Positions 25,275 through 61,235 of a DNA stretch of 64,000 nt are shown here, one piece after another. Location: the NCBI RefSeq assembly GCF_054482525.1, contig NZ_CM137006.1; one strand, given 5' to 3'. The notes below the pieces were generated by a model that saw only the letters and a list, made by a program, of their open reading frames with translations, was not told the origin of the DNA and ran no database searches. The translations under genes and the position numbers were made by a program. Numbering within the stretch: the stretch's first letter is position 1; each line of letters starts with the position of its first letter.

Positions 25275-25487
25275 CAGCTTTTCCTTACAGAGGGTGAATA
25301 AAAAAGCCGGTACCCACAAATGTGGATACCGGCAGGTACAAAACAGCATGGTCAGATAAAGTGGTTTTTCCCGGACATAAATGCTTCCCCTCTCTCATCC
25401 GCCTGAGAAGTATCAGTCCGTTGTGTGCAATTCCGTTCTGCATGATGAAGAGATTCAGCTGCCTTTTCGCAGGCCATTAACCACTAT

Positions 25488-25531
25488 AAACGATCGATAT
25501 AAACGATCGATATCTGTTTTATCGATCGTTT
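25488..25531 (-). promoter_or_regulatory. agn43 phase-variation switch: three GATC sites (Dam/OxyR region)
   Basis: GATC at 25492, 25505 and 25524 inside AAACGATCGATATAAACGATCGATATCTGTTTTATCGATCG, about 220-250 bp upstream of the Ag43 start. Confidence 0.6.
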
Positions 25532-32688: not shown

Positions 32689-33297
32689 TCAGTTACGGTT
32701 ATCGTCAACCGTTGTGCGGTATGCCAGGAGCACGTACTGATCCATCAGATCCGCCAGTGCTGCGTTCTGCTTCTGACGGTCGATGATCCATTCCCCCAGC
32801 TCTTTTTCTGATTTACGTTTCAGGTTCTCCGTCCAGTCGTCAAGGCTGTTTCCGGTCATTAAATCAAGCCAGCAAAGCCAGACCAGTTTGAGGCGCAACT
32901 CAGTGCCACCAAACTGACGGAAGAGGCTGATCAGTTTATTTGCCAGAGAACGCTGCCTCAGACGTTCACATTCAGACAGCAGAATGCCTTCCAGCATCGG
33001 ATGATGAACCAGCAGATGTTCGCTGGTGCATAAGTTCACCACCAGATCATCATCCAGGGGCGGCGTGGCCCGTTTGTCAGAGCCATAAATCAGCCGGTGC
33101 AGACTCCGGGGGACGATGGCAATCTCCGGTTTTTCACCATTGAATGACACCCACCCGGGCGTCAGATTATGGAAGTAGTGGATATTCGGATGACACACGC
33201 CCCAGGATACGGCGTGCCGGGTGAAGCCGGTCAGCCATTTCTGGTAGCTTTCGTGGAGCAGCTCGTAACGGGTCTGATACTGTGGTTTCATTTTCAT
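32689..33297 (-). CDS. Hypothetical protein downstream of alpA
   Basis: About 200-aa ORF; ATG 33297 behind GTGAGGAA; no motif recognised. Confidence 0.5.
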   Translation of the reverse strand: MKMKPQYQTRYELLHESYQKWLTGFTRHAVSWGVCHPNIHYFHNLTPGWVSFNGEKPEIAIVPRSLHRLIYGSDKRATPPLDDDLVVNLCTSEHLLVHHPMLEGILLSECERLRQRSLANKLISLFRQFGGTELRLKLVWLCWLDLMTGNSLDDWTENLKRKSEKELGEWIIDRQKQNAALADLMDQYVLLAYRTTVDDNRN

Positions 33298-33384
33298 ATT
33301 CCTCACGGGGGATAACAGGCAGCAGAACGCCGCCGGCAGGCCGGAGATTGCGTCTGCTGTGGGTGAAGGGGCAGTGGTTAAAAA

Positions 33385-33570
33385 TTACGGACGGGACTGT
33401 GCAATACGCGCCTGCAGCCAGGCTTCCACTTCACTTTTCAGCCAGCGGGAGCTGCGGCCAAGTTTGATGGGAGCCGGAAAGGCCCCATCCTTGATGAGCT
33501 TGTAAAACCACTTATCGGTCAGGCCGGTCAGCTGAGTGATAAACGCCATATCGACCATCTGGTCATCCAT
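33385..33570 (-). CDS. alpA: AlpA-family transcriptional regulator
   Basis: 61 aa; ITQLTGLTDKWFYKLIKDGAFPAPIKLGRSSRWLKSEVEAWL is AlpA/Vis-like. Confidence 0.8.
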   Translation of the reverse strand: MDDQMVDMAFITQLTGLTDKWFYKLIKDGAFPAPIKLGRSSRWLKSEVEAWLQARIAQSRP

Positions 33571-33580
33571 CAGCGAAACT

Positions 33581-33588
33581 GGGGGGGG
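33581..33588 (-). repeat. C8 homopolymer (coding strand) between an SD-preceded ATG (33592) and the alpA start
   Basis: GGGGGGGG on + strand; upstream ATG with GGAGG; current length gives a 9-codon out-of-frame mini-ORF overlapping the alpA ATG. Confidence 0.5.
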
Positions 33589-33975
33589 TCATAAAAATCT
33601 CCTCCGGATGTTGTTAATCTCAACCGGCGTTGATGATGAAAACAACGCACCACCTTCACCGGCATAACAACCGGGGAGAAACGTAAAAAATCAGTAGGGG
33701 AATATTCCTGCCAGGAGAGAAACGGTTGTGTACAGGCAATACAGGTTGTCTGTTTTGTCAGTGAAGCCGGTATAAACGGAAGATGATTTTGTGTTGCCGG
33801 AATATGGGATGGTATTTTGTCGTGACGGAATCAGTATTTTCAGTGATGATTATTACTGCGCAGGGGAGTACCGGAGAGAAACCACGCCCTGTACCTGCCA
33901 GAGCGGTGGTTTGTATTGACTGAACGGAAGATAAAGCGAGGTAAACACTGTTGTGGTGAGCGGAGAAGACTGAGA

Positions 33976-34767
33976 TTATTCTCTGTAATTACAAACAACA
34001 GTGATCTTATCCGGTTTTTTTACCGTTACGGGTTTCAGGGGATCAATTTTATAGACCGGGGTAATGACCACGCCGTAATTTATGGAGAAAAGCGGGATCC
34101 AGCAATAAACGTCAGGATATTTCTGTGTCTCCGGAATACCTTTTGTGCCAGAGGCCATCAGATCTTTAACGCTCACGAAAAATGACTTCCGCAGATCAAA
34201 AAAGTACTCGTTATATATCACATCCTTTGCCAGCAGGATGACTGCATTACCAACAGCCGATTTTACAGGTGTTTCATCAGGTGGATTATCGTGATTGTAT
34301 ATTGTTCTTTCTATATAAATAAAACAGGCATATTTCGTCTTCTCCCCGGATAGTTGCATCTGGTATTCGCAAATGTCTTTGATATACCGACTTTCAACCC
34401 TTCCAATCATCTTATCCCGGCGATAGTGTCTTTTATGTTTCAGCGCGTACAGAACACCATTTGAACTGTCAAACTCCAGGACACTTCTGGTGAAAAGTTT
34501 GTTTTCCCAGATCTCCAGACAATACTTCTCTGCACTGACGACATTGCGTTTGTGGGGAAGATCCCGTTGATACACTCCATTTAATAAGCGTGACTGCAGT
34601 TCGCCTGCAAGTTGATAGTAACAGTTAATGTCATTAAGGACAGGTGCTGTGGCGTTGAGTAATGTGTTGATTACCTTAGAGCGCGAAAGTTTGTGGGTAT
34701 GACAGTACTCATCCACAATTCGCAGTGTCTCATCACTGGTCATATTGAAAGTTATACGTGTTGTCAT
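33976..34767 (-). CDS. Hypothetical protein with N-terminal ribbon-helix-helix-like domain and ~220-aa unknown C-terminal domain
   Basis: 263 aa; N-terminus MTTRITFNMTSDETLRIVDEYCHTHKLSRSKVINTLL fits a beta-strand/two-helix RHH pattern; low GC. Confidence 0.55.
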   Translation of the reverse strand: MTTRITFNMTSDETLRIVDEYCHTHKLSRSKVINTLLNATAPVLNDINCYYQLAGELQSRLLNGVYQRDLPHKRNVVSAEKYCLEIWENKLFTRSVLEFDSSNGVLYALKHKRHYRRDKMIGRVESRYIKDICEYQMQLSGEKTKYACFIYIERTIYNHDNPPDETPVKSAVGNAVILLAKDVIYNEYFFDLRKSFFVSVKDLMASGTKGIPETQKYPDVYCWIPLFSINYGVVITPVYKIDPLKPVTVKKPDKITVVCNYRE

Positions 34768-35094
34768 GATGAAGTTTTCTGTTAATCATACTGGTTGATA
34801 TGCATAACATTTCATAAAAAATACTGTTAATTCATATAATTGATTTTTTGACTGGTTTTATCCTCGTGTGGTGGAAAGCAGTATTACTGCCACTGTAGTC
34901 AGCATAAATCTATCACACAGAACCACCGAAAATGAAGCATTGCTCAGGGGGAAGCTGCCACTCGTATGAGTTCTCTGAACCATGATAACCAGTATTTTTC
35001 GTTTTGGGTGATTTGTTTATCGTTACAGCTACATACAGTTCATGTACCATTAAAAAATAATAAAGGTTAATTAGTATTATTTATAGAAGTATGT

Positions 35095-35300
35095 TTATGT
35101 AATTCTACCGTGTAAATGAACCCTGTAATTCTACCTTGTAAATACACCTTGTAACCAAGTCCTGTAGAAGTCTGTCTCATAGAAGTATCTGTGCAGTGAT
35201 ATTCTCTGTAGTAGTACTTGTAACTCTGTCCTTAACTCTCTCTTCAGTAATGTAGTCCCGCAACACCTGAATATAAATCTGTAATGTTCACACACTGACT
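35095..35300. repeat. Iteron-like direct-repeat array in AT-rich leader
   Basis: Tandem GTAATTCTACC(G/T)TGTAAAT (35100-35145) followed by many TGTA(A/G) half-sites; lies in the 1.4-kb ORF-poor region upstream of the Gp2-like gene at 36183. Confidence 0.5.
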
Positions 35301-36182
35301 GTAACGTGCTTTGTTAAGTAATGTCTGCTATTTTTTTCTGTTATTTTTCCTGTTGTTTTCTGTATTTTGTTGTATGGTGTAATAACTATTCTGAACCCGT
35401 CATCACCTTTATAGCTAAGAGTATGACTTCGCCAGTGTTGATACTGTGGATAACGGTGATTAAGGAATTACTGTTAATGATCTGTTCCTGCAGCTCACCT
35501 GATGAGTTTTGGTAGTAATACGTAAAAGAGTATGCCTCATGTCATTAAAAAGTCTTCCGGAGTGTTGTTTAACCCTGTACCTCTGTTACTCATGTAGTAC
35601 GTTGCGGAAAGCTACGTTAATTGTAATATCTGGTTATGGCGTTATGCCTTCAGTATTAAAAACATCTTTTACCGGAGAAACTGGGAAGTGGAAAGGCTTT
35701 CGGGATAACGTCAGGCCATTATGACGATATTACGTTAATCACAGTACAAGATAACGAGAGGGTAATGGAATTTTAAACCAGAGTAGTTCCACTGTTGTTC
35801 ACTGGAAAAAGTGATTTCCCACGCGCGTTATAAGCTTACTCCAGAGGAGATGGAAGCCTTCAACTCTGCGGTCGATCACCGGCTGGCAGAACTGACCATG
35901 AACAAACTTTACGATCGTGTTCCCGCTTCAGTCTGGAAATATGTTACCTGATAAATGTTTCTGATGAAGTACAGTCGTCACAATGACATCACTTCAGATA
36001 TTATCTGCGCTGTGATTGACTGTCACGTATGCCGTTCTCTGTATGGTTCTGATACCCGGGTGTGGTCCCACTTTCTCTGTGGCGCCCGGGGAGTTGTGAA
36101 CCTGCACGTCTTCGTGTGATAACGTTTTCTTCAAAAATTACGCCAGCGCTTCTTCCTGTGTTACAGAACACGAGGAAGAAAC

Positions 36183-36782
36183 ATGAAGACTTACAACACC
36201 AATCCCGGTTACGAAATGGATCCCCAGCTCCTGACACACTTTAACCAGCATCTGGATTCATTATTCGGGGTATATTCGAAACTGTTACCGTTCAGAATGG
36301 ATTTTGCTTACCGAAAAAACACCCTCAGCTACAGATGTGCCTGCAGGTACGCCATGTGCGCGGAGATACTGCGACTGATTAACGAAGTGGGAGAGAAACT
36401 GGTCGGGTATGCCTGGGTAATGGAATATACGGAACGTAAAGGGCTTCACATTCATTTTGTGGGCTATCTGAACGGTCAGAGCCACAGGAGTTCGTATCTG
36501 GTATCCAGATTGATGGGAGATATCTGGAGGCGGGTTACCGAGGGTGATGGTTACTACCACTGGTGCCGGTTTAATAAAAATTATCCGGTAAACATTAACC
36601 ACGTCATTCACTATTCAGATCACAAAGCGGTGAATGCCTTACGCTATGCCATCAGCTACCTGGCCAAACGAGAACAGAAAGAATGTGGCATCATCCTGAA
36701 ATGCAGCGGGCTTCCTGAAAAAAGTAATCGGGGTCGACCGCGACTGGGCAGCCCCCTGCCGGAGACTTATTCTCTGGTGTAA
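36183..36782 (+). CDS. Gp2-like protein (YfjJ/YagK family; inovirus replication-initiator-like)
   Basis: 199 aa; family pattern LPFRMDFAY...KGLHIHFVGYLNG...LRYAISYLAKREQKECG. Confidence 0.75.
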   Translation: MKTYNTNPGYEMDPQLLTHFNQHLDSLFGVYSKLLPFRMDFAYRKNTLSYRCACRYAMCAEILRLINEVGEKLVGYAWVMEYTERKGLHIHFVGYLNGQSHRSSYLVSRLMGDIWRRVTEGDGYYHWCRFNKNYPVNINHVIHYSDHKAVNALRYAISYLAKREQKECGIILKCSGLPEKSNRGRPRLGSPLPETYSLV

Positions 36783-37090
36783 GACCCTGAACGACAACTA
36801 CGGGCTGGCGCTAATTGTTACAGTCGGTTCCGGAGGCCACTTCAGGGACTCTGCGCATTTTTTACGACATGGCTATTCCGTATGAACCATACGGAGATTT
36901 AACCATGGCACATTCTTTACCATTCCTTCCGGCAACCGATACAGCACATCCTCCGATGTCCATCCCTGCCTGCTGACAGTTTTTTACGCCGGAGGGCCAT
37001 TGTGTGACAACCACAGTGCTGTAACAGCAACCAGCCTGCTTTACCCAAACTCCAGTCCAGATTTTAACTGAACCGCCATTCACACCCTGA

Positions 37091-39290
<2,200 letters not shown>

Positions 39291-39302
39291 GCTTTTCATA
39301 CT

Positions 39303-39803
39303 TTATGAACGTACATCAGCAAAATGCGTCAGTAATTTTTGATTAATGTCTTTAAACAGTTCACGTTCATCATAGGTCAGAGGACTCCAGATTTCTTTCA
39401 GGTACTGGTTTTGTGTAAGGGTAATGCCCTGAATAAAGGACAGGCCTTCAGATGTCAGACTGATTTTTTTAGCACGGCGGTCCTCTTTGCTATCAGTTCT
39501 TTCTGTATATCCGGCTTTTTCTAAAAAATCTGTAATGCGGGTAATGTTTGTTCTGGTAAACTGGAGTTCTCTGCTGATCTCTGAAGGCGAAAGACAATGA
39601 TTATCTGCTGTAGATAATACGGTGAGAACCATATATGTTGAGTAATTTATTCCGTATCCTCCCAGCATTCTCGATATATTATCCTGTATTTTCTTGTTTG
39701 CACGGATACAGAGTTGTATCAAAAGATGTTCCTGACAGGGATACAGGGGATCTTTGTTTTGTTGATATTTGATTATCTTCTCTAATGAGTGTATGTTTTC
39801 CAT
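39303..39803 (-). CDS. MarR-family regulator, possibly PapX/SfaX/FocX-like
   Basis: 166 aa; winged-helix LSPSEISRELQFTRTNITRITDFLEKAGYTER; low GC; stop codon lies 1-2 bp from the IS100 end. Confidence 0.65.
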   Translation of the reverse strand: MENIHSLEKIIKYQQNKDPLYPCQEHLLIQLCIRANKKIQDNISRMLGGYGINYSTYMVLTVLSTADNHCLSPSEISRELQFTRTNITRITDFLEKAGYTERTDSKEDRRAKKISLTSEGLSFIQGITLTQNQYLKEIWSPLTYDERELFKDINQKLLTHFADVRS

Positions 39804-40603
39804 TTAATCATTTTCCATATACTGAAACATTCTGCCTTTATATAAAAGTGCATCAGTCATCCGGTAAATATCTACTTTTCACAACAATCTATGACTGCCT
39901 GATATCTGTATGAGTGAGGCGGCCCGGCAGAGAGTAAGAGCAGATTCCTTCAAATAAAAGAACATAAATGTTCATCGCTGACAAGATGGTGAAAGAATTA
40001 TTTATACTGTTAAATCAGTATAGATAATCTATCTGCCCCTGTGCTTTGTTGAACGAATCCTGACGGCCCTGAATATTCATGCAATATTATTTTATTCAGT
40101 GCACGGTAATATCCTGATTTCCATAGCATGGTGGATATGTGTATCCGGGATGGATGTTTACCAGAACCTTCTCTGTTCCAGTGTGTGGAGTTTTACAGAA
40201 GAGGCGACTGTATGCAACTCTTGCCCCGTAACTGTCTTTATTCGTTTCTCCACACTCTCCGGACATTGTAAATTCCAGATGTGTGGCAGTGTGTTTTTCG
40301 TAAATCGTACACAATGCATTTTTACACGGAGTTCAGCCAGTCGTATCACTGAGAGTTTTTTTTCTGATTTGTACCACTCATGCAGCAGTGATAAGGAGAT
40401 ATTTTCTCTGTCGGGCCAGCAGGGGCGGTGCCACCTGTTTAGTTTTCTTATGTTTGGTAAAAGAGAGGCTAAAATATATACAACAGGCGTATGTAATGAT
40501 TCATATTGTTAATCATTAACCAGTAAGAATTAATGTAGTGGATCGGTAATTCAGGACACCTCGAAATCCTGTTAATGTTAAAACAGTGAAAATGGGGTGA
40601 TGC

Positions 40604-40921
40604 ATGAGCAAAACTCGTCGGACTAAACGCACCTTTTCCCCGGAGTTCAGGCTCGAAGCTATCGAGCAAGTAGTTAAATACCAGCGCGATGTCAGAGAAG
40701 TCGCGCTGGCACTTGAGCTCAATCCTGACCATTTGCGTAAATGGATACGGTTGTATAAGCTGGAACTTCAGGGTATTGAGCCCGCTGGTAATGCCATACC
40801 CCTGAACAGCGAGAAATTCAGCAGCTTAAAAGCGCAGATAAAGCGCCTTGAGATGGAAAAAGAAATACTAAAGCAGGCTGCCGTGCTGATGAGCGAAATC
40901 CCCGGCAAGCTGTCGCGCTAA
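40604..40921 (+). CDS. IS3-family transposase OrfA (element A)
   Basis: 105 aa; HTH plus leucine-zipper-like C-terminus ...KRLEMEKEILKQAAVLMSE. Confidence 0.75.
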   Translation: MSKTRRTKRTFSPEFRLEAIEQVVKYQRDVREVALALELNPDHLRKWIRLYKLELQGIEPAGNAIPLNSEKFSSLKAQIKRLEMEKEILKQAAVLMSEIPGKLSR

Positions 40922-41040
40922 TCACACTGCTGAAAGCAAAGCGGCCAGTGCGGATTATTTGTCATTTATTCGGTGTTCACCGTAGCGTTTATTACGCGCA
41001 GGTGAAGCGTCCTGTTAATGTATCAGCGCCAATGATATAA
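40918..41040 (+). pseudogene. IS3-family OrfB 5' fragment (element A), cut by insertion of element B
   Basis: In the -1 frame after orfA; about 40 codons (…RPVRIICHLFGVHRSVYYAQVKRP…) then ends at the terminus of the inserted element. Confidence 0.5.
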
Positions 41041-41325
41041 GACAGTAATTAGGATTCGGACGATTTCCTGGACTGCTTTATTATGCCAGCCCGCATTGTT
41101 GGCGGTACATTTCAGGGATGACTGCACCCAGCGAAAATTTTATACGCCGCTCGTTATACCATCTGATGTAAGCATCCACATGCCGCATGAATTTTTCAGG
41201 CGTGATACCCAATCATTTACGCCCATAATATATTTCAGTTTTCAGTCTGCCGAAAAAGCCTTCGCATGCAGCATTATCAGGCGAGCATCCTTTACGGGAC
41301 ATTGAGCGAATAAGGCCTGCTGTAT

Positions 41326-41796
41326 TCACTCTTTCCAGCCAGGCCAGCGATAATGCCCACCTCTGTCACTGTGTATCACCGGTCGTTCGCCAGCATTTAA
41401 CGTTTCGACAGCGTTATCCAGCATAGTGTTGACCAGTTCAGCATCGGGGCGTGTACTGAGAGACCAGCTCACAACTTTTCTGTCGAAGCAGTCCACCACC
41501 GGTGATAGCCAGACTTTTCCTGCAGGAAGCTGGAACTCCGTGATATCTGTCAGCCATTTCTGATTAGGTTGCTCCGCCTTAAAATCTCTGGCGATAAGGT
41601 TATCCGGAGAAGGTCCGATTTCTCCGCAATATGAGCTGTAGCGGCGATGACGGTTACGGCTGACGACAAGCTGTTCCTCCACCATAAGTCTGCGTACAAC
41701 CTTTTCTGATAGCCGATCCCCCTCATGCCTGAGCATCGCATGCAGGCGACGATAGCCATAACACTGGTAATTACTGTTAAATATATCTGTCAGCAT
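41326..41796 (-). pseudogene. IS3-family OrfB fragment (element B)
   Basis: 156 aa covering the N-terminal and part of the catalytic region; the C-terminal region continues in another frame. Confidence 0.6.
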
Positions 41797-41904
41797 CGTA
41801 CGTATCGTGGCGTATTTATCACTGGCTTTCAGTGCAGCCCGGTGATAAAAATAACTGCTACGGGCAAGGCCCAGAACATGCAGTAATTCTGTCAGGGGAT
41901 ATGT

Positions 41905-42608
41905 TTATCTCAGGGCATCAGTAATCTTTGTTTTTTCTCTGTTGTTCAGGTGACTGATGCTGATGCCCGGGTCTTTTTTTATTATTTCCTCCGCTTTTTT
42001 CAGAATATCCAGTTCCATCTGCCGGCGGCGTATTTCCTGATTCAGTCGGGCGACTTCCTCCCGCAACGCATCGCGTTCTGCCTCCAGGGAAGGGGCGTTA
42101 TGTTTACGCATAGTCTGGTAAGCACTGTTGCCGATAATTTCATCTTTCCATTTATACAATACCGCGCGACTGACACCAATACGCCTGGCGATTTCACTGG
42201 CTGATCCTTGTCGTGTACAGAGTACCATGACAGCCTGACGTTTGACTTCTGGTTCAAAGGACGCAACCGGATTGGTCTTACTGGTAAATACACGTCGTCT
42301 GTCGGGGGAACGTTCATTAACCCAGCGAGCGAGCATATCGGTACAGGGATAACCCAGAGTCCTGCTGGTAAACGCCAGGCAGCAGCCGTGGTTAAGATAA
42401 TGTTCAACGGCAACCTGTTTTTGCTCATCGGAGTAACGGTGCTTATGACGAATGGATTCTTTTGATCCGCCACCTGCTTCCCATGAACGGATCCAACGCC
42501 GCAGATTTCTTTTCGAAGGGTAGCCCAGTTCGCGTACGACGGGGCCAGCTTCTTACCATATTTGAAATAAAGCTCAATGGTGCGAATTTTTTGTTCTTCA
42601 GTAAACAT
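41905..42608 (-). pseudogene. IS3-family OrfA, frameshifted (element B)
   Basis: Two overlapping ORFs in different frames together cover one orfA (MFTEEQKIRTIELYFKYGKK... and ...LYKWKDEIIGNSAYQ...EVARLNQEIRRRQMELDILKKAEEI). Confidence 0.6.
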
Positions 42609-42858
42609 GTTTCATCTCCTGAGAGTCCAGGAAATCGTCCGCATCCCCTAACGGTCAAAAATCGTGGCGTTGATACAGGGGAAATCCGTAGTTTTTGATG
42701 CCAGCCATAACGTGTTTGACTATAAAGTATTACGAAAGGACTTTAATGAGCCCCTGGAATAATTCATTAAAGTAATTTACTTCGCTATCCTTTTCCCAGT
42801 TACTCACAAAGAAAAATATTCATAAAATAATTCCCGGGCTGGCAGCCCGGGATGATTA

Positions 42859-44121
42859 CTATTTTAATGGATTGTTAATCTTTGCATATTCAAACGGGCT
42901 GATACATTGTTCTCTGTTCGCACCCAGAAAATCTGCCCACCACTGTAGCATCAGTCGACGTTCTTCCAGATGTTCTGCTTTATGGATATATGCAGCACGT
43001 ACACCATTACGCTCCTGATGGCTCATCTGACGTTCCACAGCATCGCGGGACCACAAACCTGATTCAATCAATGCACTGCACGCCATCGCCCGGAATCCAT
43101 GACCACAGACTTCCTGGGTTGTGTCATATCCCATCACCCTCAGGGCTTTATTTACAGTATTTTCACTGATCGGTTTACGCGGGTCATGTGCTCCCGTAAA
43201 GATCAGACCATTTTCACCAGCCCATGTCTGTAGTTCTGTCAGTATGGCTACAGCCTGTTTGCTGAGTGGCACAAGATGTGGTGTTCGCATCTTGGAGCCC
43301 CGGTGTGAGTATTTTACGCCTGGCAGAGGTTCGCGTTCGGCTGGAATAGTCCACATGGCATTGTCAATATCAATTTCAGACCAGCGGGAATATCTGAGTT
43401 CACTGGAACGAATAAAAACCAGTAAATTCAGCATAACTGCCAGTCGGGTGACAGGCTGACCTTTATAACCGTCAATACGCGACAGAAGTTCAGGCAGGCG
43501 TGAAAGATCCAGAGCAGGGCGATGCTGGCGTTTTACCGTGGTCAATGCACCAGCCATATCCAGAGCCGGGTTATATCTGATGATGCCAGACTGTACGGCA
43601 TAACGCATTACAGCAGATATTCTTTGCTGCAGACGACTGGCGATTTCATAAATTTGTTTTGCTTCTGCAGCACGAACAGGGATAAGCAGGTCCGGGGTAT
43701 TGAGTGTTGTGATATCCCGGTTGCCGATAAAGGGGAAAACGTGTGTCTCGAGGCTTTTGATTACTTTATCGCTGTGTGATTGTGCCCATTGTTTATTACT
43801 GGCATGCCAGCGTCGTGCAATATGTTCAAAAGAGAGTTGTAAATCAGGGACTACTTTTTTAGCTCTTTTTTGTTCGCAAGGGTCAATCCCCTCTGAAATC
43901 AGTTTTCGGGCCTCATCCCGTTTTGTACGAGCTTCGGAGAGAGAAACTTCTGGATATACACCAAGTGCCAGAGTCTTCTCCTTACCCAGAATACGATAAC
44001 GGAGACGCCAGTAACGGGAACCATTAGGATGAACCAGCAGGAACATGCCAGCCCCGTCAGTGAGTTTATAAGCCTTGTCAGTGTGCTTTGCAGCCCGGAT
44101 TTTTGCGTCAGTCAGTGCCAT
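42859..44121 (-). CDS. int: P4/CP4-57-type tyrosine integrase
   Basis: 420 aa; MALTDAKIRAAKHTDKAYKLTDGAGMFLLVHPNGSRYWRLRYR N-terminus; C-terminal catalytic region with R...HxxR...Y. Confidence 0.9.
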   Translation of the reverse strand: MALTDAKIRAAKHTDKAYKLTDGAGMFLLVHPNGSRYWRLRYRILGKEKTLALGVYPEVSLSEARTKRDEARKLISEGIDPCEQKRAKKVVPDLQLSFEHIARRWHASNKQWAQSHSDKVIKSLETHVFPFIGNRDITTLNTPDLLIPVRAAEAKQIYEIASRLQQRISAVMRYAVQSGIIRYNPALDMAGALTTVKRQHRPALDLSRLPELLSRIDGYKGQPVTRLAVMLNLLVFIRSSELRYSRWSEIDIDNAMWTIPAEREPLPGVKYSHRGSKMRTPHLVPLSKQAVAILTELQTWAGENGLIFTGAHDPRKPISENTVNKALRVMGYDTTQEVCGHGFRAMACSALIESGLWSRDAVERQMSHQERNGVRAAYIHKAEHLEERRLMLQWWADFLGANREQCISPFEYAKINNPLK

Positions 44122-44286
44122 AGTTCAGCCTTCTGAATGCGTTAAAGAGGGTACAAATTCTGTCGAACTGGGGTATACCCGCAATTATACCCACACAATG
44201 GGGTTGATGTGGGGGGAATCTGGTTGAGTTCGGTAGAATTGATTTGGAGGCAGAACGCTTAAATTGTGGCGTTCTGAAACGAAAAA

Positions 44287-44306
44287 CGGACCTCCGTGGA
44301 GGTCCG
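44287..44306 (-). terminator. Hairpin CGGACCTCC-GTG-GAGGTCCG followed by T-run on the minus strand
   Basis: Perfect 9-bp stem between the tRNA-like repeat and the integrase gene. Confidence 0.4.
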
Positions 44307-44318
44307 TTGATATGAATT

Positions 44319-44340
44319 TGGTGCCCGGACTCGGAATGAA
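44319..44340 (-). repeat. tRNA-Phe 3'-end-like repeat (island att-site remnant)
   Basis: TGGTGCCCGGACTCGGAAT matches the reverse complement of a tRNA-Phe 3' end, then diverges; no full tRNA. Confidence 0.55.
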
Positions 44341-44584
44341 ACTGGTTATATAACCAATTGTTTTGTATCGACTGTTTTATCCTTGTTCTTTTTGAGGCCA
44401 CCAATGAGGCCCCCATGTGCAATTCGAATTCTTTTGACGCTATAATCCCTCTTTCTTGTGGTTTGTTGTAATCATTTTGTCTGGTTCGATATGCTGAATC
44501 GCGGAATCGAAGTGACAACAAAATACAGAGATTTATAAAATACCTGGCTACCTGTGTTAGGGAGCGTTAACGCACAGATTTTGT

Positions 44585-44911
44585 TTATGGCTGCCAGAAA
44601 TGATCTGATGGTTTGTCGTCTGGCTCTGCAAGTACCCTGTTGATATCCCGGGAACCATGAACGATACGTTCGATACGAACTTCAGTATCCAGTACCCTGA
44701 ACAGCAGAAGGTAACGACCATACGAACAACCTCTGATCCCAGCCCCTAACTCGGGTCTTTCTCTGTAGAGTACTGGCGATTCGGCTATCAACAGACATTG
44801 TTGGTAAAGCTCTTCGGTAAAACTGATTGCACGGACAGGATTATCCTGAGCGATCCAGTCACCTATAGCTTCAAGATCGTGTTCTGCTAATGGTGAAACA
44901 GTCAGTTTCAT
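44585..44911 (-). CDS. parE: ParE/RelE-superfamily toxin (type II TA)
   Basis: 108 aa; 4-nt overlap with the upstream antitoxin gene. Confidence 0.75.
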   Translation of the reverse strand: MKLTVSPLAEHDLEAIGDWIAQDNPVRAISFTEELYQQCLLIAESPVLYRERPELGAGIRGCSYGRYLLLFRVLDTEVRIERIVHGSRDINRVLAEPDDKPSDHFWQP

Positions 44912-45171
44912 ATTGGCTGTTCACCTTCTGCCATCTTTTTGTATTTGTGCGTCAGTCGCCCGAATACCTCTTCAGCACTTTTACTTTCACCGCTGTTGAT
45001 GCCTGCGGCCACGGCGCTCTGGAGTGATTCAAGCTTTATCTGCTGTTCCCGTTCTTCCAGAGCACGAAGTCCGGCACGAATGACTTCACTTGTATTGTTG
45101 TACCGACCACTTTCTATTTGTTCGCGGATAAACGTTTCAAAGTAAGGACTGAGGGATACACTGGTAGGCAT
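44908..45171 (-). CDS. parD: ParD-like antitoxin (type II TA)
   Basis: 87 aa; ...SEVIRAGLRALEEREQQ... ParD-type fold signature. Confidence 0.7.
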   Translation of the reverse strand: MPTSVSLSPYFETFIREQIESGRYNNTSEVIRAGLRALEEREQQIKLESLQSAVAAGINSGESKSAEEVFGRLTHKYKKMAEGEQPI

Positions 45172-52062: not shown

Positions 52063-52995
52063 ATGACTGCACAACAGATTGATGCATTACGCGACATTGT
52101 TAATAAGGCCAGAGTTACCGCCATTTGTAAAAGTCCGGCCTGGAAATATACTCTGCGAATACTGAAGCGCAGCAGACTCGTGTACAGAGGAGAACGGTCA
52201 GAATCGTTTGATCCGGAGAAACATTTTAATCGTTATACGGTGCGTTATCTGTACCTGCTTAACATAATGGCACTTGAGCTAAAGTCAGATACACGGATTA
52301 AGGTTGAGGTAGGTCAATGGTATCGCATGACGGGTAAACGTTTATCACTTAATGTCCCGCCTTTTATGCTGATTCCGCGTAATATCCGGAGAAAAGTGGA
52401 TGGATTCAGACAATCAGAAGGCGAAGCAACAAAACAAACGGCTCAACCGTTCACGGGCAGTTTGTATGAGGTTTTGAGCAGGGATAACGATTCGGCTGAG
52501 CTGGACGCCTGGTTTGCTGAACCACCGCTGACACGACAGGAAGTGCGGGAGGGGAGGCGTGTCACAGATTTTAATCCATGGGCGCAGTCTTCGTTTATTT
52601 GCCGTTCAGCATCCCCGACGTTTGAACTTTTTTACCAGGAATATAAGCGACTGGGATTAAGTGTTTTTTTTGATCCGGAAAATAGAAAACCTTTTGAAAG
52701 TATAAAAAAACATTTCGGGGATAAACCACAGTTACTGGAGAGACTGGGGGATGTGTTGTTTTTCACGTCGCTTTATAACCAGGGATGTTTAGGGGAGTTT
52801 GTCAATGCGCTTGTGGAAAAGGAGGACATTTATCTGAAAGCGTCCCCCGGGGAAGAAAAGCTGAAAGCACACCAGAAAATGATTAACTACATTGAAGAGT
52901 TCTGCAACAAAATGACGGAAAAGTATCTGATATCCGCAGCCAGGAGACACTACCAAAAGAAGAAAATCGGCAGGAGCAGAAGTGGTGAAAGTTAA
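52063..52995 (+). CDS. Hypothetical protein A (unknown function)
   Basis: ATG 52063 behind GGAGGG; 310 aa; no recognised motif; divergent from the GTPase gene. Confidence 0.55.
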   Translation: MTAQQIDALRDIVNKARVTAICKSPAWKYTLRILKRSRLVYRGERSESFDPEKHFNRYTVRYLYLLNIMALELKSDTRIKVEVGQWYRMTGKRLSLNVPPFMLIPRNIRRKVDGFRQSEGEATKQTAQPFTGSLYEVLSRDNDSAELDAWFAEPPLTRQEVREGRRVTDFNPWAQSSFICRSASPTFELFYQEYKRLGLSVFFDPENRKPFESIKKHFGDKPQLLERLGDVLFFTSLYNQGCLGEFVNALVEKEDIYLKASPGEEKLKAHQKMINYIEEFCNKMTEKYLISAARRHYQKKKIGRSRSGES

Positions 52996-53822
52996 TACAG
53001 TCTGTGGTTCTGAATCACCAGCCTGTGGTTCTGAATCAGATGTTCCAGGACAGCCTGTTGTGTTGTTTTCAGTTCTCTGGTCAGTCTGTCCAGAGTACGT
53101 TTTGCATCTGATGATATTTTAACGTTGATTTGTACCCGCTTATCTTTTTTTCCGTCGGTAAACTGTTTTCGGAATGCATTGTGCATCTTGTCGAAAAATT
53201 TTTCTTTTGCGGCAACCCCATAGTGAAGTACTTTTGGCTGCTGTAAGTATGGTGTATCTGCGGGGAATAAAATTTTTAGTAAAACTACGATAGCAATGTA
53301 TCTTTCGTTATCACTTACAGGATAAAACCAGGAAAGATACGTGTGCGGGATGCGTGCATTGATATATTTCCATGCCCATTCGAGTTGTTCTGTATTCTTT
53401 TTAAGCCATTTGGCTTCGTTTCTCTTTTCGATCTGCAGCCAGTTTTGATGCATTGTTGAGATGAAGCAATCTGATTGATTGTCAAGGATTAATGCATTAA
53501 TCCATTTGCTTATAACATCCAGTCTCATTTCATGATCTGAAGGAATTGTTGTTATGGGTATACTCCCCGCAGGAATCAGCCCCATCATGGCTGTATTGAA
53601 CCCTAATTCATTACGAACCCCAAGGAGTTTGGGATCTGTGTTAATTATAACTAACCAGAACCAGAATGCTGCAATTTCATTTTTTTTAACCCATTCAGGT
53701 ATGTGATTATCTGTCAGTTGTTTATCATTCAACAAATACTCAATTGTTTCATTTTCCCAGCTATATCCATTCACGTTATAACCATCTTCATATTGTTTCA
53801 TCTGATTACGCCTCAATCGCAT
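52992..53822 (-). CDS. Hypothetical protein B (unknown function) with C-terminal ribbon-helix-helix-like segment
   Basis: Low-GC ORF; C-terminus ...VKISSDAKRTLDRLTRELKTTQQAVLEHLIQNH; alternative starts at 53801 or 53915; 3' end overlaps gene A by 4 nt. Confidence 0.5.
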   Translation of the reverse strand: MRLRRNQMKQYEDGYNVNGYSWENETIEYLLNDKQLTDNHIPEWVKKNEIAAFWFWLVIINTDPKLLGVRNELGFNTAMMGLIPAGSIPITTIPSDHEMRLDVISKWINALILDNQSDCFISTMHQNWLQIEKRNEAKWLKKNTEQLEWAWKYINARIPHTYLSWFYPVSDNERYIAIVVLLKILFPADTPYLQQPKVLHYGVAAKEKFFDKMHNAFRKQFTDGKKDKRVQINVKISSDAKRTLDRLTRELKTTQQAVLEHLIQNHRLVIQNHRLY

Positions 53823-54494
53823 TCTCTTCTGGTGATTTTCACTATCACATGGAAATCGAATATGCAAGGAAGTTAACAAAAAAACATTGCATCCGGACTT
53901 GTGTTCAAAAAGCAATCACTTCAAGGCTTGATCACTCTGTGAGATGCTGAAGAACTATTCTCTAACTATTCACGATCTATTCTTGATCTATTCATAATAA
54001 ATTAAAACATGCTATCAACTACTGCTCATATCCTCCTTGGGTGTGTCGTTGTACTGTTCGACTGTTCTTGTGGTCAGATTAACAATCTGAAGAGTAAAAG
54101 CGACAGTAATCTGTCTGTTATAGTGGCGATAAAAACACTGAATGCGCATCCTGTATGTGAAATCCTGTCATGTGGAGCAGTAAGCAATGACAGGCATGCA
54201 TGTTATATGTGAAGGGGGCCGGGAGACGACATAATCAGTATGGCTGTCATTCTGGTTGTAAAACGCGATCACTTTCCGGGGGTAAAAGATGATATGGAAG
54301 CTGACAAACGGTTTGCTTCGGATTGTCTTTTCTGGGGCCTGAAATACGGGGACAGAAAAATAATTCCAGAGTAAATCTGCTCCGTTTTCAGAACAAAAAT
54401 CCCCATGCTGGCCGTGAAAAACTGAAACGAACATTCAGTCTGCATGAGTGTCTGAAGATGTTGAGAATGTCGGTATGATACTATATACACATGT

Positions 54495-54700
54495 TTTTAT
54501 TAAGTGTTATATACATATCTTTTTAAATAGATAATTCTACACATATTTTACTAAGTGTTTTTACTAAGCATTTCAGTAAGTGTTATACACGTATTTTCTA
54601 CTAAGTGTTTTACCAGACATACACATGTTTTCATAAACAATTCTACAAGTGTTTTCATTAAGTATTGTTATACACATTGCTTTGTCTGATACACATCCAG
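54495..54700. repeat. Iteron-like array of TAAGTGTT / ATACAC motifs
   Basis: At least five (C)TAAGTGTT copies at about 22-25-bp spacing, interleaved with ATACAC; inside a 1.6-kb ORF-poor region between hypothetical B and the Gp2-like gene at 55552. Confidence 0.5.
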
Positions 54701-55551: not shown

Positions 55552-56283
55552 ATGAATCAACCAATACACAATGCTTACTGGTTATCCCGTTTTGACAGCC
55601 TTCTCGACAGTGCCCTAGTGCAGCACCGTGCCGTCTCGTTAATTCGGGTGGATTTACGTTTTCCTGAGTATATGCCTGCCACTATTATGGATACCGATTT
55701 AGATTCAGCAGTGATTTCTCGTTTTTTCGAATCCCTGAAAGCAAAAATTCAGGCTTACCAGCGGAAAAAACGACGTGCCAACAAGCGTGTGCGTGCAACC
55801 ACTCTGCGTTATTTCTGGTGTCGGGAGTTTGGCAAGGAAAAAGGCAGGAAACATTATCACGTGATATTACTGCTCAACAAAGATACCTGGTGCTCGCCAG
55901 GGGATTTCACCGTTCCTTCTTCGCTGGCGACGCTGATCAAGCTGGCATGGTGCAGTGCTCTGCATCTCGAGCCCTGGCAGGGTAATGGACTGGTTCATTT
56001 TTCCAGGCGGACGCCTTTCCGTAAACCGACATCATCTGATGCTCGCCCTTCTTCCGATGATACGCCTTTGTCGGGTGGATGTTCTGAAACCAGGAAGGCT
56101 TCAGACAAAAAGCCGGGTGAAGCCGCTGTTCTCTGGGTCAAGCGTGGTGATGTGGAAGCGATGCAGAAAGCCATGGAGAGAGCCTGTTATCTCGTGAAGT
56201 ATGAGACGAAGCAGCATGACGGTTCTGGGCAACGTAATTATGGTTGCAGTCGTGGGCCGGGGCGTCTACTGGATGGCAGGTGA
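55552..56283 (+). CDS. Gp2-like protein (YfjJ/YagK family)
   Basis: 243 aa; VSLIRVDLRFP...RKHYHVILLLNKD...CYLVKYETKQ family pattern. Confidence 0.75.
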   Translation: MNQPIHNAYWLSRFDSLLDSALVQHRAVSLIRVDLRFPEYMPATIMDTDLDSAVISRFFESLKAKIQAYQRKKRRANKRVRATTLRYFWCREFGKEKGRKHYHVILLLNKDTWCSPGDFTVPSSLATLIKLAWCSALHLEPWQGNGLVHFSRRTPFRKPTSSDARPSSDDTPLSGGCSETRKASDKKPGEAAVLWVKRGDVEAMQKAMERACYLVKYETKQHDGSGQRNYGCSRGPGRLLDGR

Positions 56284-59116: not shown

Positions 59117-60668
59117 GAGGTTGGTGATAAGGCGTTTTGCATATCCTGCACCTATGCAAATGTTCACCAATTATGGGGGGGGAATGAGAATTTCTCTGAA
59201 AAAACCGCTACGGTAGCAACAGTAGCAGCACATGCACCACATCTGTGATTTAATTTTGTTTTCATAATGACCTGCTGTCAGAGCTGGTTGAATACAGGAG
59301 TGTGCGCACTGGTGGAAGCATGGCTTTCGTTTTTTATTGATCGAAAGTGAATCGAAAGATTATTTTTAACATAGATTAAAGCTAATCATTAACCATATTG
59401 TGTGAGTTTTCATATATAACTTCGTTTGATTTTCGTCGTGATGAGTGTAGGTGTATATGATAATGTCGGTCTCTGCCTGAATAACGAATGGTTATCACTG
59501 TTACTGAAAAGAGATGCTGTTCAAGTTTGCATTTCAATAGGAGAGTGAAGAAAAATGATTTGATATTTTTTCTGTAAGATAATGGTTTGTCATGTTCGTA
59601 TTCAGAACGGATGATTTCTTATTTTTACTCATCAAACATGGATAATTTTAATTTAGGTTTATTACTATAATTAGTATCTACCCCTTTATTTATCATCCAT
59701 CTCTGCCCTTCATTTTCCCTCTCTGTCTTTACACATTCCATTACTCTTATTCTCATCCAGTTATATTCACTCCCTTCCTTGTCTAATCTTCATTGTCACC
59801 ATTATCATGGTATCCACCTTCTCCATTCCTCAATCATAACTACTGTAACTCATATGATACTCAGATAAGTTATTCTCTACTACGCTATTGCTGATATCCA
59901 TCTGTTCCTGTTTTCAGTAAAATAATAATTTATTTTAATTTTATCCATCATGAGCTGTATTTGCTTAACAATGATTGTTTATCTGATATGTTTTAACCAT
60001 TCTGGTAAATATCAATACTTCTGTCATCACTGATTAACTGAATGCTTACTCTTTAATAAGGTATCCATTATTCTGTAACGATTAGCCGAGCAGGGTAAAT
60101 AACAGAATTAATAGAGTGAATTTCTGATTGTGTTTGTTCGTTCCTGATTATCTTGTATTTTAAATAAAATGAAAATTATCCATCCATGGTATGTTTCATT
60201 CTGGTACCGTGTACCCGTTAACGTTCATATCTTGAACATGAGTTGTTTTTAACAGATAAAATGAGTGCGTGTAAGTTTATTGGGTTACAGGTATCGTGTT
60301 GGCCTTGTACACGGTTTTTTAGAACCATTGAGAGCAAGTTTGTAATTTATGATGGTGATTAGTCGTAATATGTTTCTTGAACTTCTGATCGTGGGTTTTT
60401 ATCGCATATTTTGCAGTATTTCGTGATGTTTATTGATTCTGTATTTTATTCACTCCTCGTTTATCTCATCTCTTTAGCTAATACCATCAGATAATCCATT
60501 TATTTCTGCACAACGCTACGTGTCGTTAATAACCGACGTATCCATTCTGTTACAGCATGCCTGATAAATACCGTCTGTAAGTTATTACCGTTTTAGATCT
60601 GATTATGAGCGAAAGCATTAATTCGTTTACAGCACTTAAAACGTCATTAACTTTCAGGAGTCATCAGC

Positions 60669-61235
60669 ATGCCTAAATCTTACACACCAAACTGGTTTTT
60701 TACCGCTTTACTTGACAATCACATCAATCAGTTGGTCGCACGCTATTCCCGTCTGCGGGCCTTACGCATGGATTTCTTCTACAGGAAAGATACGCCTGAT
60801 TTCTTACAACCTGATCATCGCTGGCTTGAATTGCAGTTGCGTATGCTGCTGGAGCAGGTGGAACAATTTGAAAATATCGTTGGTTTCTTCTGGGTGATTG
60901 AATGGACGGCTGATCATGGTTTTCATGCGCATGCGGTTTTCTGGCTCGATCGTCAGAGGGTTAAAAAAATATATCCCTTTGCGGAGCGGATTACGGAATG
61001 CTGGCAGTCTATTACGCATAACAGCGGTTCGGCACACCGCTGTACATATCAGCCGCATTATACATACAACATCAACATTCCTGTGCGCCACAACGATCCT
61101 GAAAGCATCGATAATATTCGCGGTGCCCTGCATTATCTGGCGAAAGAAGAGCAAAAAGACGGGCTGTGTGCCTACGGCTGCAGTGAAGTTCCTGAGCGTC
61201 CTGCTGCAGGGCGTCCTCGTAAGCCTCACTTCTGA
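60669..61235 (+). CDS. Gp2-like protein (YfjJ/YagK family)
   Basis: 188 aa; LRMDFFYRKD...HGFHAHAVFWLDR...LHYLAKEEQKDG. Confidence 0.75.
   Translation: MPKSYTPNWFFTALLDNHINQLVARYSRLRALRMDFFYRKDTPDFLQPDHRWLELQLRMLLEQVEQFENIVGFFWVIEWTADHGFHAHAVFWLDRQRVKKIYPFAERITECWQSITHNSGSAHRCTYQPHYTYNINIPVRHNDPESIDNIRGALHYLAKEEQKDGLCAYGCSEVPERPAAGRPRKPHF

What the first reader, a model, noticed from the sequence alone, without database searches (positions are those of the whole stretch)
35095..35300. Second iteron-like array, with a perfect-spacing tandem 22-mer
GTAATTCTACCGTGTAAATGAA and GTAATTCTACCTTGTAAATACA are tandem, followed by repeated TGTA(A/G) half-sites, in the 1.4-kb leader of the Gp2-like gene at 36183. 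It parallels the 54.5-kb array but with a different repeat sequence, suggesting distinct specificity per initiator.
Basis: seen in the sequence. Interest (0 to 1): 0.45.

Follow-up and report, generated by a model that had tools for sequence, protein, structure and literature searches.

The report
Variable 13-base repeat array upstream of Rep-like gene
A real, strain-variable array of 13-base direct repeats sits at the head of the long upstream region of a replication-initiator-like gene in an E. coli genomic island; it looks like a set of protein-binding sites, but nothing here shows that it is a replication origin.

Summary
The unit is 13 nt (TGTAA-N5-YC-N), in two alternating types that give a 26-nt super-period. 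Six units (35098-35175) and five more same-strand TGTAR copies up to 35304 form the strongest periodic signal in the 64-kb window.

The window is E. coli chromosome. The array lies in a CP4-like island, in a 1,415-nt divergent spacer between a YagM-like gene and a Gp2-like gene. That gene's product keeps the HUH and Tyr motifs of rolling-circle initiators.

Ten alleles carry 5-11 units, some with mutated cores. The array was found only in this E. coli lineage; other lineages of the subfamily, and Salmonella, Citrobacter and Pectobacterium islands with the same gene pair, lack it.

It starts 16 nt after a ~21-nt element conserved upstream of Gp2-like genes in about ten lineages. A second array at 54.5 kb stays linked to another Gp2-family gene while its left neighbour changes.

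Best reading (about 0.35): lineage-specific binding sites in the Rep-like gene's control or origin region. Rivals: operator or Rho-loading leader, leftward promoter cluster, neutral minisatellite. Classical iteron criteria are not met.

The parts
35098..35175 (+). Core array: six 13-nt direct repeats (TGTAA/G-N5-YC-N), in two alternating unit types that give a 26-nt super-period.
   Evidence: Copy number is 5-11 in ten alleles.
35207..35304 (+). Five dispersed same-strand TGTAR copies (35207, 35219, 35251, 35280, 35300) at irregular spacing. Most are kept in most other alleles.
35061..35081 (+). Conserved AT-rich element TAAAGGTTAATTAGTATTATT (consensus TWWRGGT-N4-9-TRTWAYT), 16 nt upstream of the array. 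It may be a -10-containing promoter with a regulator site, or a Rep recognition or nick site.
   Evidence: It is on the coding strand 165-1118 nt upstream of Gp2-like genes in about ten lineages. The pattern matches only twice in the 64-kb window.
35324..35368 (+). T-tract region with an 11-12-nt period (TCTGTTATTTTT), likely intrinsically curved AT-rich DNA.
   Evidence: TRF; AT skew -0.33.
35445..35453 (-). The only perfect DnaA box (TTATCCACA) in the 64-kb window.
   Evidence: It is kept in six of the seven aligned alleles.
35802..35951 (+). Truncated Hha/YmoA-family paralogue inside the 'leader'. It is full length in some alleles and absent in others.
   Evidence: (Pfam HHA, 4.9e-20, profile positions 16-57).
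36183..36782 (+). Gp2-like gene (199 aa). It is HUH-type Rep-like, with invariant H89-x-H91 and Y155/Y159/K162.
   Evidence: (REP_ORF2-G2P and YagK_YfjJ_C, both below the curated cut-off).
33976..34767 (-). Divergent YagM-like gene (263 aa, family UCP007319) with a possible N-terminal ribbon-helix-helix.
   Evidence: BLASTP to K-12 YagM, 3e-14; PF27701; weak aCcr1 hit.
33385..33570 (-). AlpA-family regulator or excisionase-like gene, downstream of the YagM-like gene.
   Evidence: (Phage_AlpA, 3.1e-09).
54483..54700 (+). Second array (module 2): composite repeats ATACACRT plus ACTAAGTGTT, period 12-13/25. Six DnaA-box-like TTATNCACA copies lie on one strand.
55552..56283 (+). YagK/YfjJ (Gp2-family) gene of module 2, 243 aa.
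   Evidence: YagK_YfjJ_C, 7.4e-37.
59652..59672 (+). Second copy of the conserved element (TTTAGGTTTATTACTATAATT), about 1.0 kb upstream of a third Gp2-like gene.
60669..61235 (+). Third Gp2-like gene (188 aa, 33% identical to the 199-aa protein).

Best explanation
The array is a lineage-specific, copy-number-variable set of direct-repeat protein-binding sites at the head of the upstream control region of the Gp2-like gene. That gene encodes a small HUH-type Rep-like protein of a CP4-like E. coli genomic island.

Proposed mechanism: an island-encoded DNA-binding protein recognises the TGTAA core plus the YC at positions 11-12 of each 13-bp unit, and several copies bind side by side. The Rep-like protein itself is the leading candidate, by analogy with HUH initiators that bind short direct repeats next to their cleavage site. 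The bound protein would sit next to the conserved 21-nt element (35061-35081), which would be the Rep recognition or nick site, the gene's promoter, or both. The result would be to load or position the initiator, to autoregulate the operon, or both.

Shown here:
- The repeat, its significance and its polymorphism.
- Its position next to a family-wide conserved element.
- Its linkage to the Gp2 side.
- The HUH and Tyr motifs of the protein.

Inferred only:
- That any protein binds the array, and which one.
- Any role in replication.
For: - The signal is highly non-random and confined to one strand.
- Across 27 distinct units from ten alleles, positions 1-5 (TGTAA) and 12 (C) are nearly fixed while positions 6-10 vary. 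This is the pattern expected for a short recognition core.
- Five more TGTAR copies lie outside the 13-nt register, and most are kept in most alleles.
- The array begins 16 nt after a ~21-nt element present on the coding strand upstream of Gp2-like genes in about ten lineages, down to about 35-40% protein identity. These include lineages with no YagM-like neighbour (L156, L011, window 59652). The derived pattern matches only twice in the 64-kb window, and the chance of a match per 1.7-kb region is at most 0.04.
- Module 2 shows the same layout with a different repeat, and its array, leader and gene stay together while the left neighbour changes. Its repeat includes six same-strand DnaA-box-like sites against 0.29 expected.
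- The only perfect DnaA box in the window lies 270 nt beyond the array.
- The Gp2-like protein has invariant H89-x-H91 and Y155/Y159/K162 and weak Pfam hits to REP_ORF2-G2P and YagK_YfjJ_C.
- A pLDDT-80 model matches parvovirus NS1, AAV Rep, circovirus Rep and SIRV1 ORF119 nuclease domains.
- That some HUH origin-binding domains bind tandem short repeats (AAV Rep, parvovirus NS1, pMV158 RepB, geminivirus Rep) is from my own knowledge.
Against: - No binding or replication data exist.
- The array is absent from the other lineages of the subfamily. The local direct-repeat test downstream of the conserved element gives 41 pairs against 4.6 expected here. It is marginal in L156, L009, L017 and L019 and null in six others.
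- Salmonella, Citrobacter and Pectobacterium islands with the same divergent gene pair have a spacer of about 370-400 nt without it.
- Many E. coli genomes match only parts of the spacer (2229 genomes with any match against 747 for the array segment).
- In several alleles two or three units have mutated cores (TGTCA, CGTAA, TGCAG), which suggests weak constraint.
- A 13-bp spacing is 1.24 helical turns, so it does not keep sites on one face of the DNA.
- The array is about 1.0 kb from the gene start.
- No stable hairpin is present for an HUH nick site (z = +1.0).
- Pfam scores are below the curated cut-offs, and the structural matches are weak (TM about 0.3) among many generic ferredoxin-fold hits.
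Confidence: 0.35

Rival explanations
1. Transcribed-leader or operator model. The conserved element is an activator-dependent promoter (-10 TATTAT/TATAAT with no -35), possibly AlpA-dependent. The array lies at about +10 to +90 of a long untranslated leader. There it acts either as a downstream operator or roadblock, or at RNA level as a Rho-loading (rut-like) attenuator that keeps the Rep-like operon silent unless an antiterminator is present.
For: - The element contains TATTAT/TATAAT. Its conserved TTTRGGT part sits where the P. aeruginosa AlpA binding element lies, between -35 and -10 (PMC7969949).
- An AlpA gene accompanies most of these islands.
- The 78-nt array meets the published rut heuristics: 78 nt, C 17 against G 12, and a C every 13 nt. 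RhoTermPredict uses 78 nt, C>G and C every 11-13 nt (PMC6407284).
- The array is less structured than shuffled sequence.
- In most relatives the leader downstream of the element is strongly C-rich and G-poor (G 6-12%, C 24-32%).
Against: - No -35 element is conserved, and three lineages have TGTTAT, which lacks the key A at position 2 of the -10.
- The consensus promoter scan finds no + strand promoter there.
- No terminator-like hairpins are found in the leader.
- The best-conserved part of each unit, TGTAA, contains a G and is not explained by Rho binding.
- No transcription data were available.
Confidence: 0.22
2. Neutral minisatellite. A 13/26-nt unit was amplified by slippage or unequal recombination in AT-rich non-coding island DNA, and it has no sequence-specific function.
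For: - Copy number varies from 5 to 11 among ten alleles, with whole-unit gains and losses.
- Cores are mutated in some units.
- The array is confined to one E. coli island lineage.
- IS elements insert in the same spacer in other strains, so the region tolerates disruption.
Against: - The old, diverged unit types still share TGTAA and YC at fixed register.
- Out-of-register TGTAR copies are conserved further downstream.
- The array is placed exactly beside a conserved element.
- Module 2 shows an independent parallel.
Confidence: 0.2
3. Leftward promoter cluster. On the - strand each pair of units reads TTTACA/ATTACA, 16-17 nt, then TAGAAT/AATAAT. The array would therefore provide tandem sigma-70 promoters, or RNA polymerase binding sites, that drive the YagM-like/alpA operon.
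For: - Four of the 11 promoter-like sites in 34600-36300 lie in the array on the - strand (35155-35076), pointing at the YagM-like gene.
- The most proximal one (-35 in the first unit, -10 AATAAT at 35081-35076) is kept in all alleles.
Against: - It would leave a 5' UTR of about 300 nt.
- A cross-genus conserved TATGAT box lies about 20 nt before the YagM-like start, so a proximal promoter is likely.
- Relatives with the same gene have no such cluster.
- The matches are only 9 of 12 to the consensus.
Confidence: 0.1
4. Classical theta-type iteron origin: a plasmid-like oriV with iterons, a DnaA box and AT-rich DNA, fired by the neighbouring initiator.
For: Direct repeats, AT-rich T-tract DNA and a single perfect DnaA box all lie within 350 nt. 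Module 2's array is rich in DnaA-box-like sites.
Against: - The period is 13/26 nt rather than about 22.
- The adjacent protein is HUH-type, not RepA-like.
- The array is about 1 kb from the gene.
- No plasmid or phage shows similarity to this DNA except in the hha part.
- The array is absent from relatives.
Confidence: 0.08

Closest known systems
Rep-binding direct repeats next to the cleavage site of HUH initiators (pMV158 RepB 'bind' locus, geminivirus and circovirus iterons, AAV Rep binding element). This comparison is from my own knowledge.
   Same: - Short direct repeats in one orientation lie beside a conserved AT-rich element.
- They are upstream of a gene for a small HUH/Tyr protein.
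- The repeat sequence differs between lineages, while the neighbouring element is conserved.
   Different: - No hairpin presents a nick site.
- The 13-nt period and the 5-11 copies are unusual.
- The repeats are missing in the other lineages of the subfamily.
- The element is chromosomal, in an integrative island.
- No nicking or binding has been shown.
Iterons of theta plasmids and of island replicons (for example pSC101, P1 and SGI1 oriV). This comparison is from my own knowledge.
   Same: A direct-repeat array with nearby AT-rich DNA and a DnaA box, upstream of a putative initiator gene in a mobile element.
   Different: - The period is 13/26 nt, not 17-22 nt on about 22-bp centres.
- The initiator family is different.
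- The gene is about 1 kb away.
- Copy number varies between strains.
Rho utilisation sites in long 5' leaders (criteria as used by RhoTermPredict, PMC6407284).
   Same: The array spans 78 nt, has C>G, has a C every 13 nt and is unstructured. Related leaders are strongly G-poor.
   Different: - It is a true tandem repeat with a conserved G-containing core.
- Transcription of this strand is not shown.
AlpA or Q-type antiterminator loading promoters (P. aeruginosa alpB promoter, PMC7969949).
   Same: A conserved element lies just upstream of a -10-like hexamer, AlpA genes are present in the islands, and a long leader precedes the regulated gene.
   Different: - No -35 element.
- No intrinsic terminator in the leader.
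- The element's sequence is unrelated to GGGACG-N5-GGTA.
- This concerns the neighbouring element, not the array itself.

Membership tests
Classical plasmid iterons (theta replicons) | Direct repeats of about 17-22 bp spaced on about 22-bp centres (whole helical turns) | tested here: not met
   The unit is 13 nt and the super-period 26 nt.
Classical plasmid iterons (theta replicons) | Cognate RepA/pi/TrfA-type initiator encoded next to the repeats | tested here: not met
   The neighbouring protein gives only REP_ORF2-G2P and YagK_YfjJ_C hits and has HUH/Tyr motifs. It lies about 1.0 kb away.
Classical plasmid iterons (theta replicons) | AT-rich unwinding region and DnaA boxes beside the repeats | tested here: inconclusive
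   There is one perfect DnaA box at 35445-35453 and T-tract DNA at 35324-35368, but no cluster of boxes.
Classical plasmid iterons (theta replicons) | Initiator binding and origin activity | not testable with these tools
   This needs gel-shift or footprinting assays and a replication assay.
HUH-initiator origin (double-strand origin or oriT-like) | Adjacent protein with HUH metal-binding motif and catalytic Tyr | tested here: met
   H89-x-H91, Y155, Y159 and K162 are invariant in nine sequences down to 37% identity. The fold is compatible with HUH nuclease domains, though weakly.
HUH-initiator origin (double-strand origin or oriT-like) | Recognition or nick sequence conserved among related initiators | tested here: inconclusive
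   A ~21-nt element is conserved upstream of about ten lineages on the coding strand. Nothing shows that it is cleaved, and it could equally be a promoter.
HUH-initiator origin (double-strand origin or oriT-like) | Nick site presented in a hairpin or cruciform | tested here: not met
   The region 35060-35340 folds no better than shuffles (z = +1.01). Only an 8-bp all-AT inverted repeat flanks the element, and it is not conserved in other lineages (by eye).
HUH-initiator origin (double-strand origin or oriT-like) | Binding repeats present across the family | tested here: not met
   Local direct repeats are strongly significant only in this lineage. They are marginal in four lineages and absent in six.
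Rho utilisation site | About 78 nt, C>G, C every 11-13 nt, unstructured | tested here: met
   The 78 nt hold 17 C and 12 G, with YC at a fixed 13-nt register. The fold z-score is +1.0. Criteria are from PMC6407284.
Rho utilisation site | Lies in a transcribed, untranslated RNA and causes Rho-dependent termination | not testable with these tools
   No transcript data were available, and the consensus scan finds no + strand promoter at the element.
Variable-number tandem repeat | Whole-unit copy-number differences between strains | tested here: met
   Ten alleles carry 5-11 units.

The most novel reading that the evidence does not exclude
The conserved 21-nt element and the repeats beside it would be the origin (recognition or nick site plus loading sites) of an unrecognised rolling-circle replication or mobilisation module. 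That module would be built on the small Gp2-like HUH protein, often paired with a DUF3987 helicase-like protein and AlpA. It is widespread in CP4-like 'cryptic prophage' islands of Enterobacteriaceae. These islands would then replicate, or transfer as single strands, after excision, and the variable array would tune that activity between strains.
Probability: 0.12. Interest if true: 0.75.

Novelty: new variant of a known kind. Interest (0 to 1): 0.4.

Why it matters
The YagK/YfjJ ('inovirus Gp2-like') proteins are core genes of a very common class of enterobacterial and Pseudomonas genomic islands, and no function is known for them. Parts of this spacer occur in 2229 of 5426 complete E. coli genomes. 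The array segment itself occurs in 747.

If the array and the conserved element next to it are the DNA sites on which the Rep-like protein acts, these 'cryptic' islands would have an active replication or mobilisation step. That step could be tested directly with simple binding, nicking and copy-number assays.

If the array is only a minisatellite, it remains a useful strain-typing polymorphism and nothing more.

Tried and rejected
- **Rfam, whole window.** Nothing at the locus.
- **Similarity to plasmids and phages.** Only the hha part matches plasmids. There is no phage match, so the array is not borrowed from a known replicon.
- **Pattern scans of viral contigs.** Hits were unrelated tandem repeats or chance AT-rich matches. 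One locus (L219) was simply the E. coli paralogue. The patterns were too unspecific.
- **Pattern scan of metagenome contigs.** Of 120 hits, seven carry the real array with its neighbouring element.
- **YagM-like protein as the binder.** I consider this unlikely. Homologues 52-58% identical, with a well-conserved N-terminal region, occur in Citrobacter, Salmonella and Pectobacterium without any TGTAA repeats. Its structure model was too poor to use (pLDDT 55.7).
- **Integrase arm-type or excisionase sites.** Rejected. The array is not at an island end, no tRNA gene or att site is near it, and there is no TGTAR cluster near the integrase gene.
- **Shared motifs between leaders 1 and 2.** None beyond chance.
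- **Known E. coli regulator sites, from memory (CpxR, TyrR, OmpR, PhoB, ArcA).** Spacing or symmetry does not fit. This was not tested further.
- **K-12 yfjJ and yagK.** They have short upstream gaps, no array and no conserved element.
- **Literature.** No paper assigns a function to YagK/YfjJ or describes this spacer.

Full report
**What is there**

The window is E. coli chromosome. It is 99.9-100% identical to strain AH50 over the 12 kb compared, 33000-45000.

The finding lies in a CP4-like (P4-type integrase) genomic island, in a 1,415-nt spacer (34768-36182) between two divergent gene groups.
- Leftward: a 263-aa YagM-like gene, an AlpA-family gene and a 205-aa gene.
- Rightward: a truncated hha paralogue, the 199-aa 'inovirus-type Gp2' gene, a zinc-ribbon gene fragment, and then IS100.

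They are 4 nt apart. The real unit is 13 nt: TGTAA, five variable bases, YC, and one more base. Two unit types alternate, which gives a 26-nt super-period.

Six units fill 35098-35175. Five more TGTAR copies on the same strand follow, up to 35304. This is 11 copies in 210 nt against 1.75 per kb in the window. TGTAA at period 13 is the only 5-mer in the whole 64 kb with five or more copies at a fixed period of 8-30 nt.

**Population and phylogenetic behaviour**

Parts of the spacer occur in 2229 of 5426 complete E. coli genomes. The array-bearing segment occurs in 747.

Ten alleles carry 5-11 units, and the window allele, with 6, is among the shortest. Across 27 distinct units, positions 1-5 and 12 are almost fixed while positions 6-10 vary. 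However, several alleles have units with mutated cores: TGTCA, CGTAA, TGCAG.

The rest of the spacer is well conserved among seven aligned alleles (80-100% identity in the searched segment). The hha segment is absent from two of them, and hha is full length in two other alleles.

The array was not found outside this E. coli lineage.
- Salmonella, Citrobacter and Pectobacterium islands have the same divergent YagM-like/Gp2-like pair but a spacer of only about 370-400 nt, with no TGTAA repeats.
- Seven more distant Gp2-like loci show no comparable array.
- K-12 yfjJ and yagK have short upstream gaps.
- Plasmids match only the hha part, and phages not at all.
- In a metagenome pattern scan, the only genuine copies were the same E. 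coli island.

**To which gene does the array belong?**

The array starts 16 nt downstream of an AT-rich element, 35061-35081 (TAAAGGTTAATTAGTATTATT). This element is the only part of the spacer shared with the 63%-identical paralogue lineage (L156, L011). In that lineage the left neighbour is a DUF3987 gene and there is no YagM-like gene.

Versions of the element (TWWRGGT, 4-9 nt, TRTWAYT) lie on the coding strand 165-1118 nt upstream of Gp2-like genes in these genera:
- Budvicia
- Serratia
- Enterobacter
- Pseudocitrobacter
- Citrobacter
- Pectobacterium
- Salmonella

A copy also lies upstream of a third Gp2-like gene in this window (element at 59652, gene at 60669-61235). The pattern matches only these two places in the 64 kb. 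Its chance of occurring per 1.7-kb region is at most 0.04. The pattern was derived from the instances themselves, so these numbers are indicative only.

Downstream of the element, the coding strand is C-rich and G-poor in most lineages.

The 54.5-kb array behaves in a parallel way.
- It is a composite repeat (ATACACRT plus ACTAAGTGTT), with period 12-13/25.
- It lies about 0.9-1.0 kb upstream of a distant Gp2-family gene.
- It varies in copy number.
- It stays attached to that gene while the left neighbour changes.
- It holds six same-strand DnaA-box-like sites against 0.29 expected.

**What the neighbouring protein is**

The 199-aa protein gives only sub-threshold Pfam hits, to REP_ORF2-G2P and YagK_YfjJ_C. 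But H89-x-H91 and Y155/Y159/K162 are invariant down to 37% identity.

A pLDDT-80 model finds parvovirus NS1, AAV Rep, circovirus Rep and SIRV1 ORF119 nuclease domains among its best matches. The scores are weak, and many generic ferredoxin-fold hits appear alongside them. An HUH-type initiator or nuclease is the best reading of the protein.

The YagM-like protein (BLASTP to K-12 YagM, 3e-14) may start with a ribbon-helix-helix. Its homologues in other genera have no TGTAA repeats upstream, so it is a poor candidate for the binder.

**How it most likely works**

I favour, at about 0.35, a set of protein-binding direct repeats at the head of the Rep-like gene's control or origin region. They would be bound by an island protein, and the Rep-like protein is the leading candidate.

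Arguments for:
- The short conserved core at fixed register.
- The out-of-register extra copies.
- The single orientation.
- The position beside a family-wide conserved element.
- The module-2 parallel.
- The single perfect DnaA box of the window, 270 nt further on.

Arguments against:
- Relatives lack repeats. The test gives 41 pairs against 4.6 expected here, is marginal in four lineages and null in six.
- Cores are mutated in some units.
- The spacing is 13 bp, which is 1.24 helical turns.
- The gene is about 1 kb away.
- There is no hairpin.

**Rivals**

- *Transcribed leader or operator (0.22).* The element contains TATTAT/TATAAT, and its conserved part sits where the AlpA binding element lies in P. 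aeruginosa (PMC7969949). The 78-nt array meets published rut heuristics, with C 17 against G 12 and a C every 13 nt (PMC6407284). But there is no -35, no transcript evidence and no terminator-like hairpin, and the conserved TGTAA is not explained.
- *Neutral minisatellite (0.20).*
- *Leftward promoter cluster (0.10).* On the - strand the units read TTTACA/ATTACA, 16-17 nt, TAGAAT/AATAAT. However, a cross-genus conserved TATGAT box sits just before the YagM-like start.
- *Classical theta-type iteron origin (0.08).* This fails the period and initiator-family criteria.

**Comparison with what is known, and novelty**

The closest analogues are the Rep-binding direct repeats of HUH initiators, and plasmid or island iterons. 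The array works like them at best. It does not meet the defining features of classical iterons, and only some of those of an HUH origin.

No paper found here assigns a function to YagK/YfjJ proteins or describes this spacer. A preprint lists Gp2-like proteins, AlpA and RadC as likely core genes of a related island class in Pseudomonas (10.1101/2024.08.29.610337). The hha copies correspond to the known hha2/hha3 paralogues (PMC4864382).

I rate the array a new variant of a known kind, of moderate interest (0.4). The more interesting by-product is the conserved 21-nt element upstream of Gp2-like genes.

Noticed in passing
window 35061-35081 and 59652-59672; also L156 3251-3271, L013 about 4171-4191, and L017, L019, L154, L015, L016, L014 upstream of their Gp2-like genes: A ~21-nt AT-rich element (TWWRGGT, 4-9 nt, TRTWAYT) lies on the coding strand 165-1118 nt upstream of Gp2-like genes in about ten lineages, down to about 35-40% protein identity. 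It contains a -10-like TATWAT with no -35. Part of it (TAGTATTAT) resembles the circovirus/nanovirus nonanucleotide TAGTATTAC. It could be a promoter with a regulator site, or a Rep recognition site.
   Followed up: partly
window 59673-59870; leaders in L009, L017, L019, L154, L015, L016: Immediately downstream of the conserved element, the coding strand is strongly C-rich and G-poor (G 6-12%, C 24-32% over up to 200 nt). The 200 nt upstream of the element do not show this skew in most lineages.
   Followed up: partly
window 54483-54695: One of the two motifs of the 54.5-kb array (ATACACRT) makes six same-strand matches to the DnaA-box consensus TTATNCACA, allowing one mismatch. Shuffles give 0.29 on average. 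One copy (54668) is a perfect TTATACACA.
   Followed up: partly
window 35445-35453 (- strand): The only perfect DnaA box (TTATCCACA) in the 64-kb window lies inside this spacer, 270 nt beyond the array. It is kept in six of the seven aligned alleles.
   Followed up: partly
window 35802-35951; L145 4573-4785; L147 4360-4572; absent in L007 and L008: The hha paralogue inside the 'leader' is N-terminally truncated here (49 aa with a CTG start in RefSeq). It is full length (71 aa) in other alleles and missing altogether in others.
   Followed up: partly
window 53952-53993: An 11-nt direct-repeat array (GAACTATTCTC, 3.8 copies) lies just upstream of a - strand gene (52992-53822). By eye, that gene's product ends in a ribbon-helix-helix-like segment.
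   Followed up: no
window 60669-61235: A third Gp2-like gene (188 aa, 33% identical to the 199-aa protein). It follows a DUF3987 gene (57186-59072) and a 1.6-kb gap, and an AlpA-like ORF lies downstream at 62160-62396. The window therefore holds three Gp2-family genes.
   Followed up: partly
window 35324-35368: T-tracts repeated at 11-12 nt (TCTGTTATTTTT, 2.8-3.4 copies), likely intrinsically curved DNA, lie between the array and the DnaA box.
   Followed up: no
L145 3245-4458, L146 2837-4065, L147 2678-3847, L001 13759-14972; window 37403-39204: IS3-family elements are inserted at different points of this spacer, or of the Gp2-like gene, in other strains. In the window, IS100 cuts the zinc-ribbon gene downstream of the Gp2-like gene.
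   Followed up: no
L149 and L151, about 393 nt upstream of the Gp2-family gene: A perfect (TGATGG) hexamer microsatellite of 6.8-7.8 copies lies in the module-2 leader of some strains. The window allele has no such repeat.
   Followed up: no
window 25293-25529 (- strand): Rfam match to IS102 RNA (79.4 bits). It was the only Rfam hit in the window.
   Followed up: no
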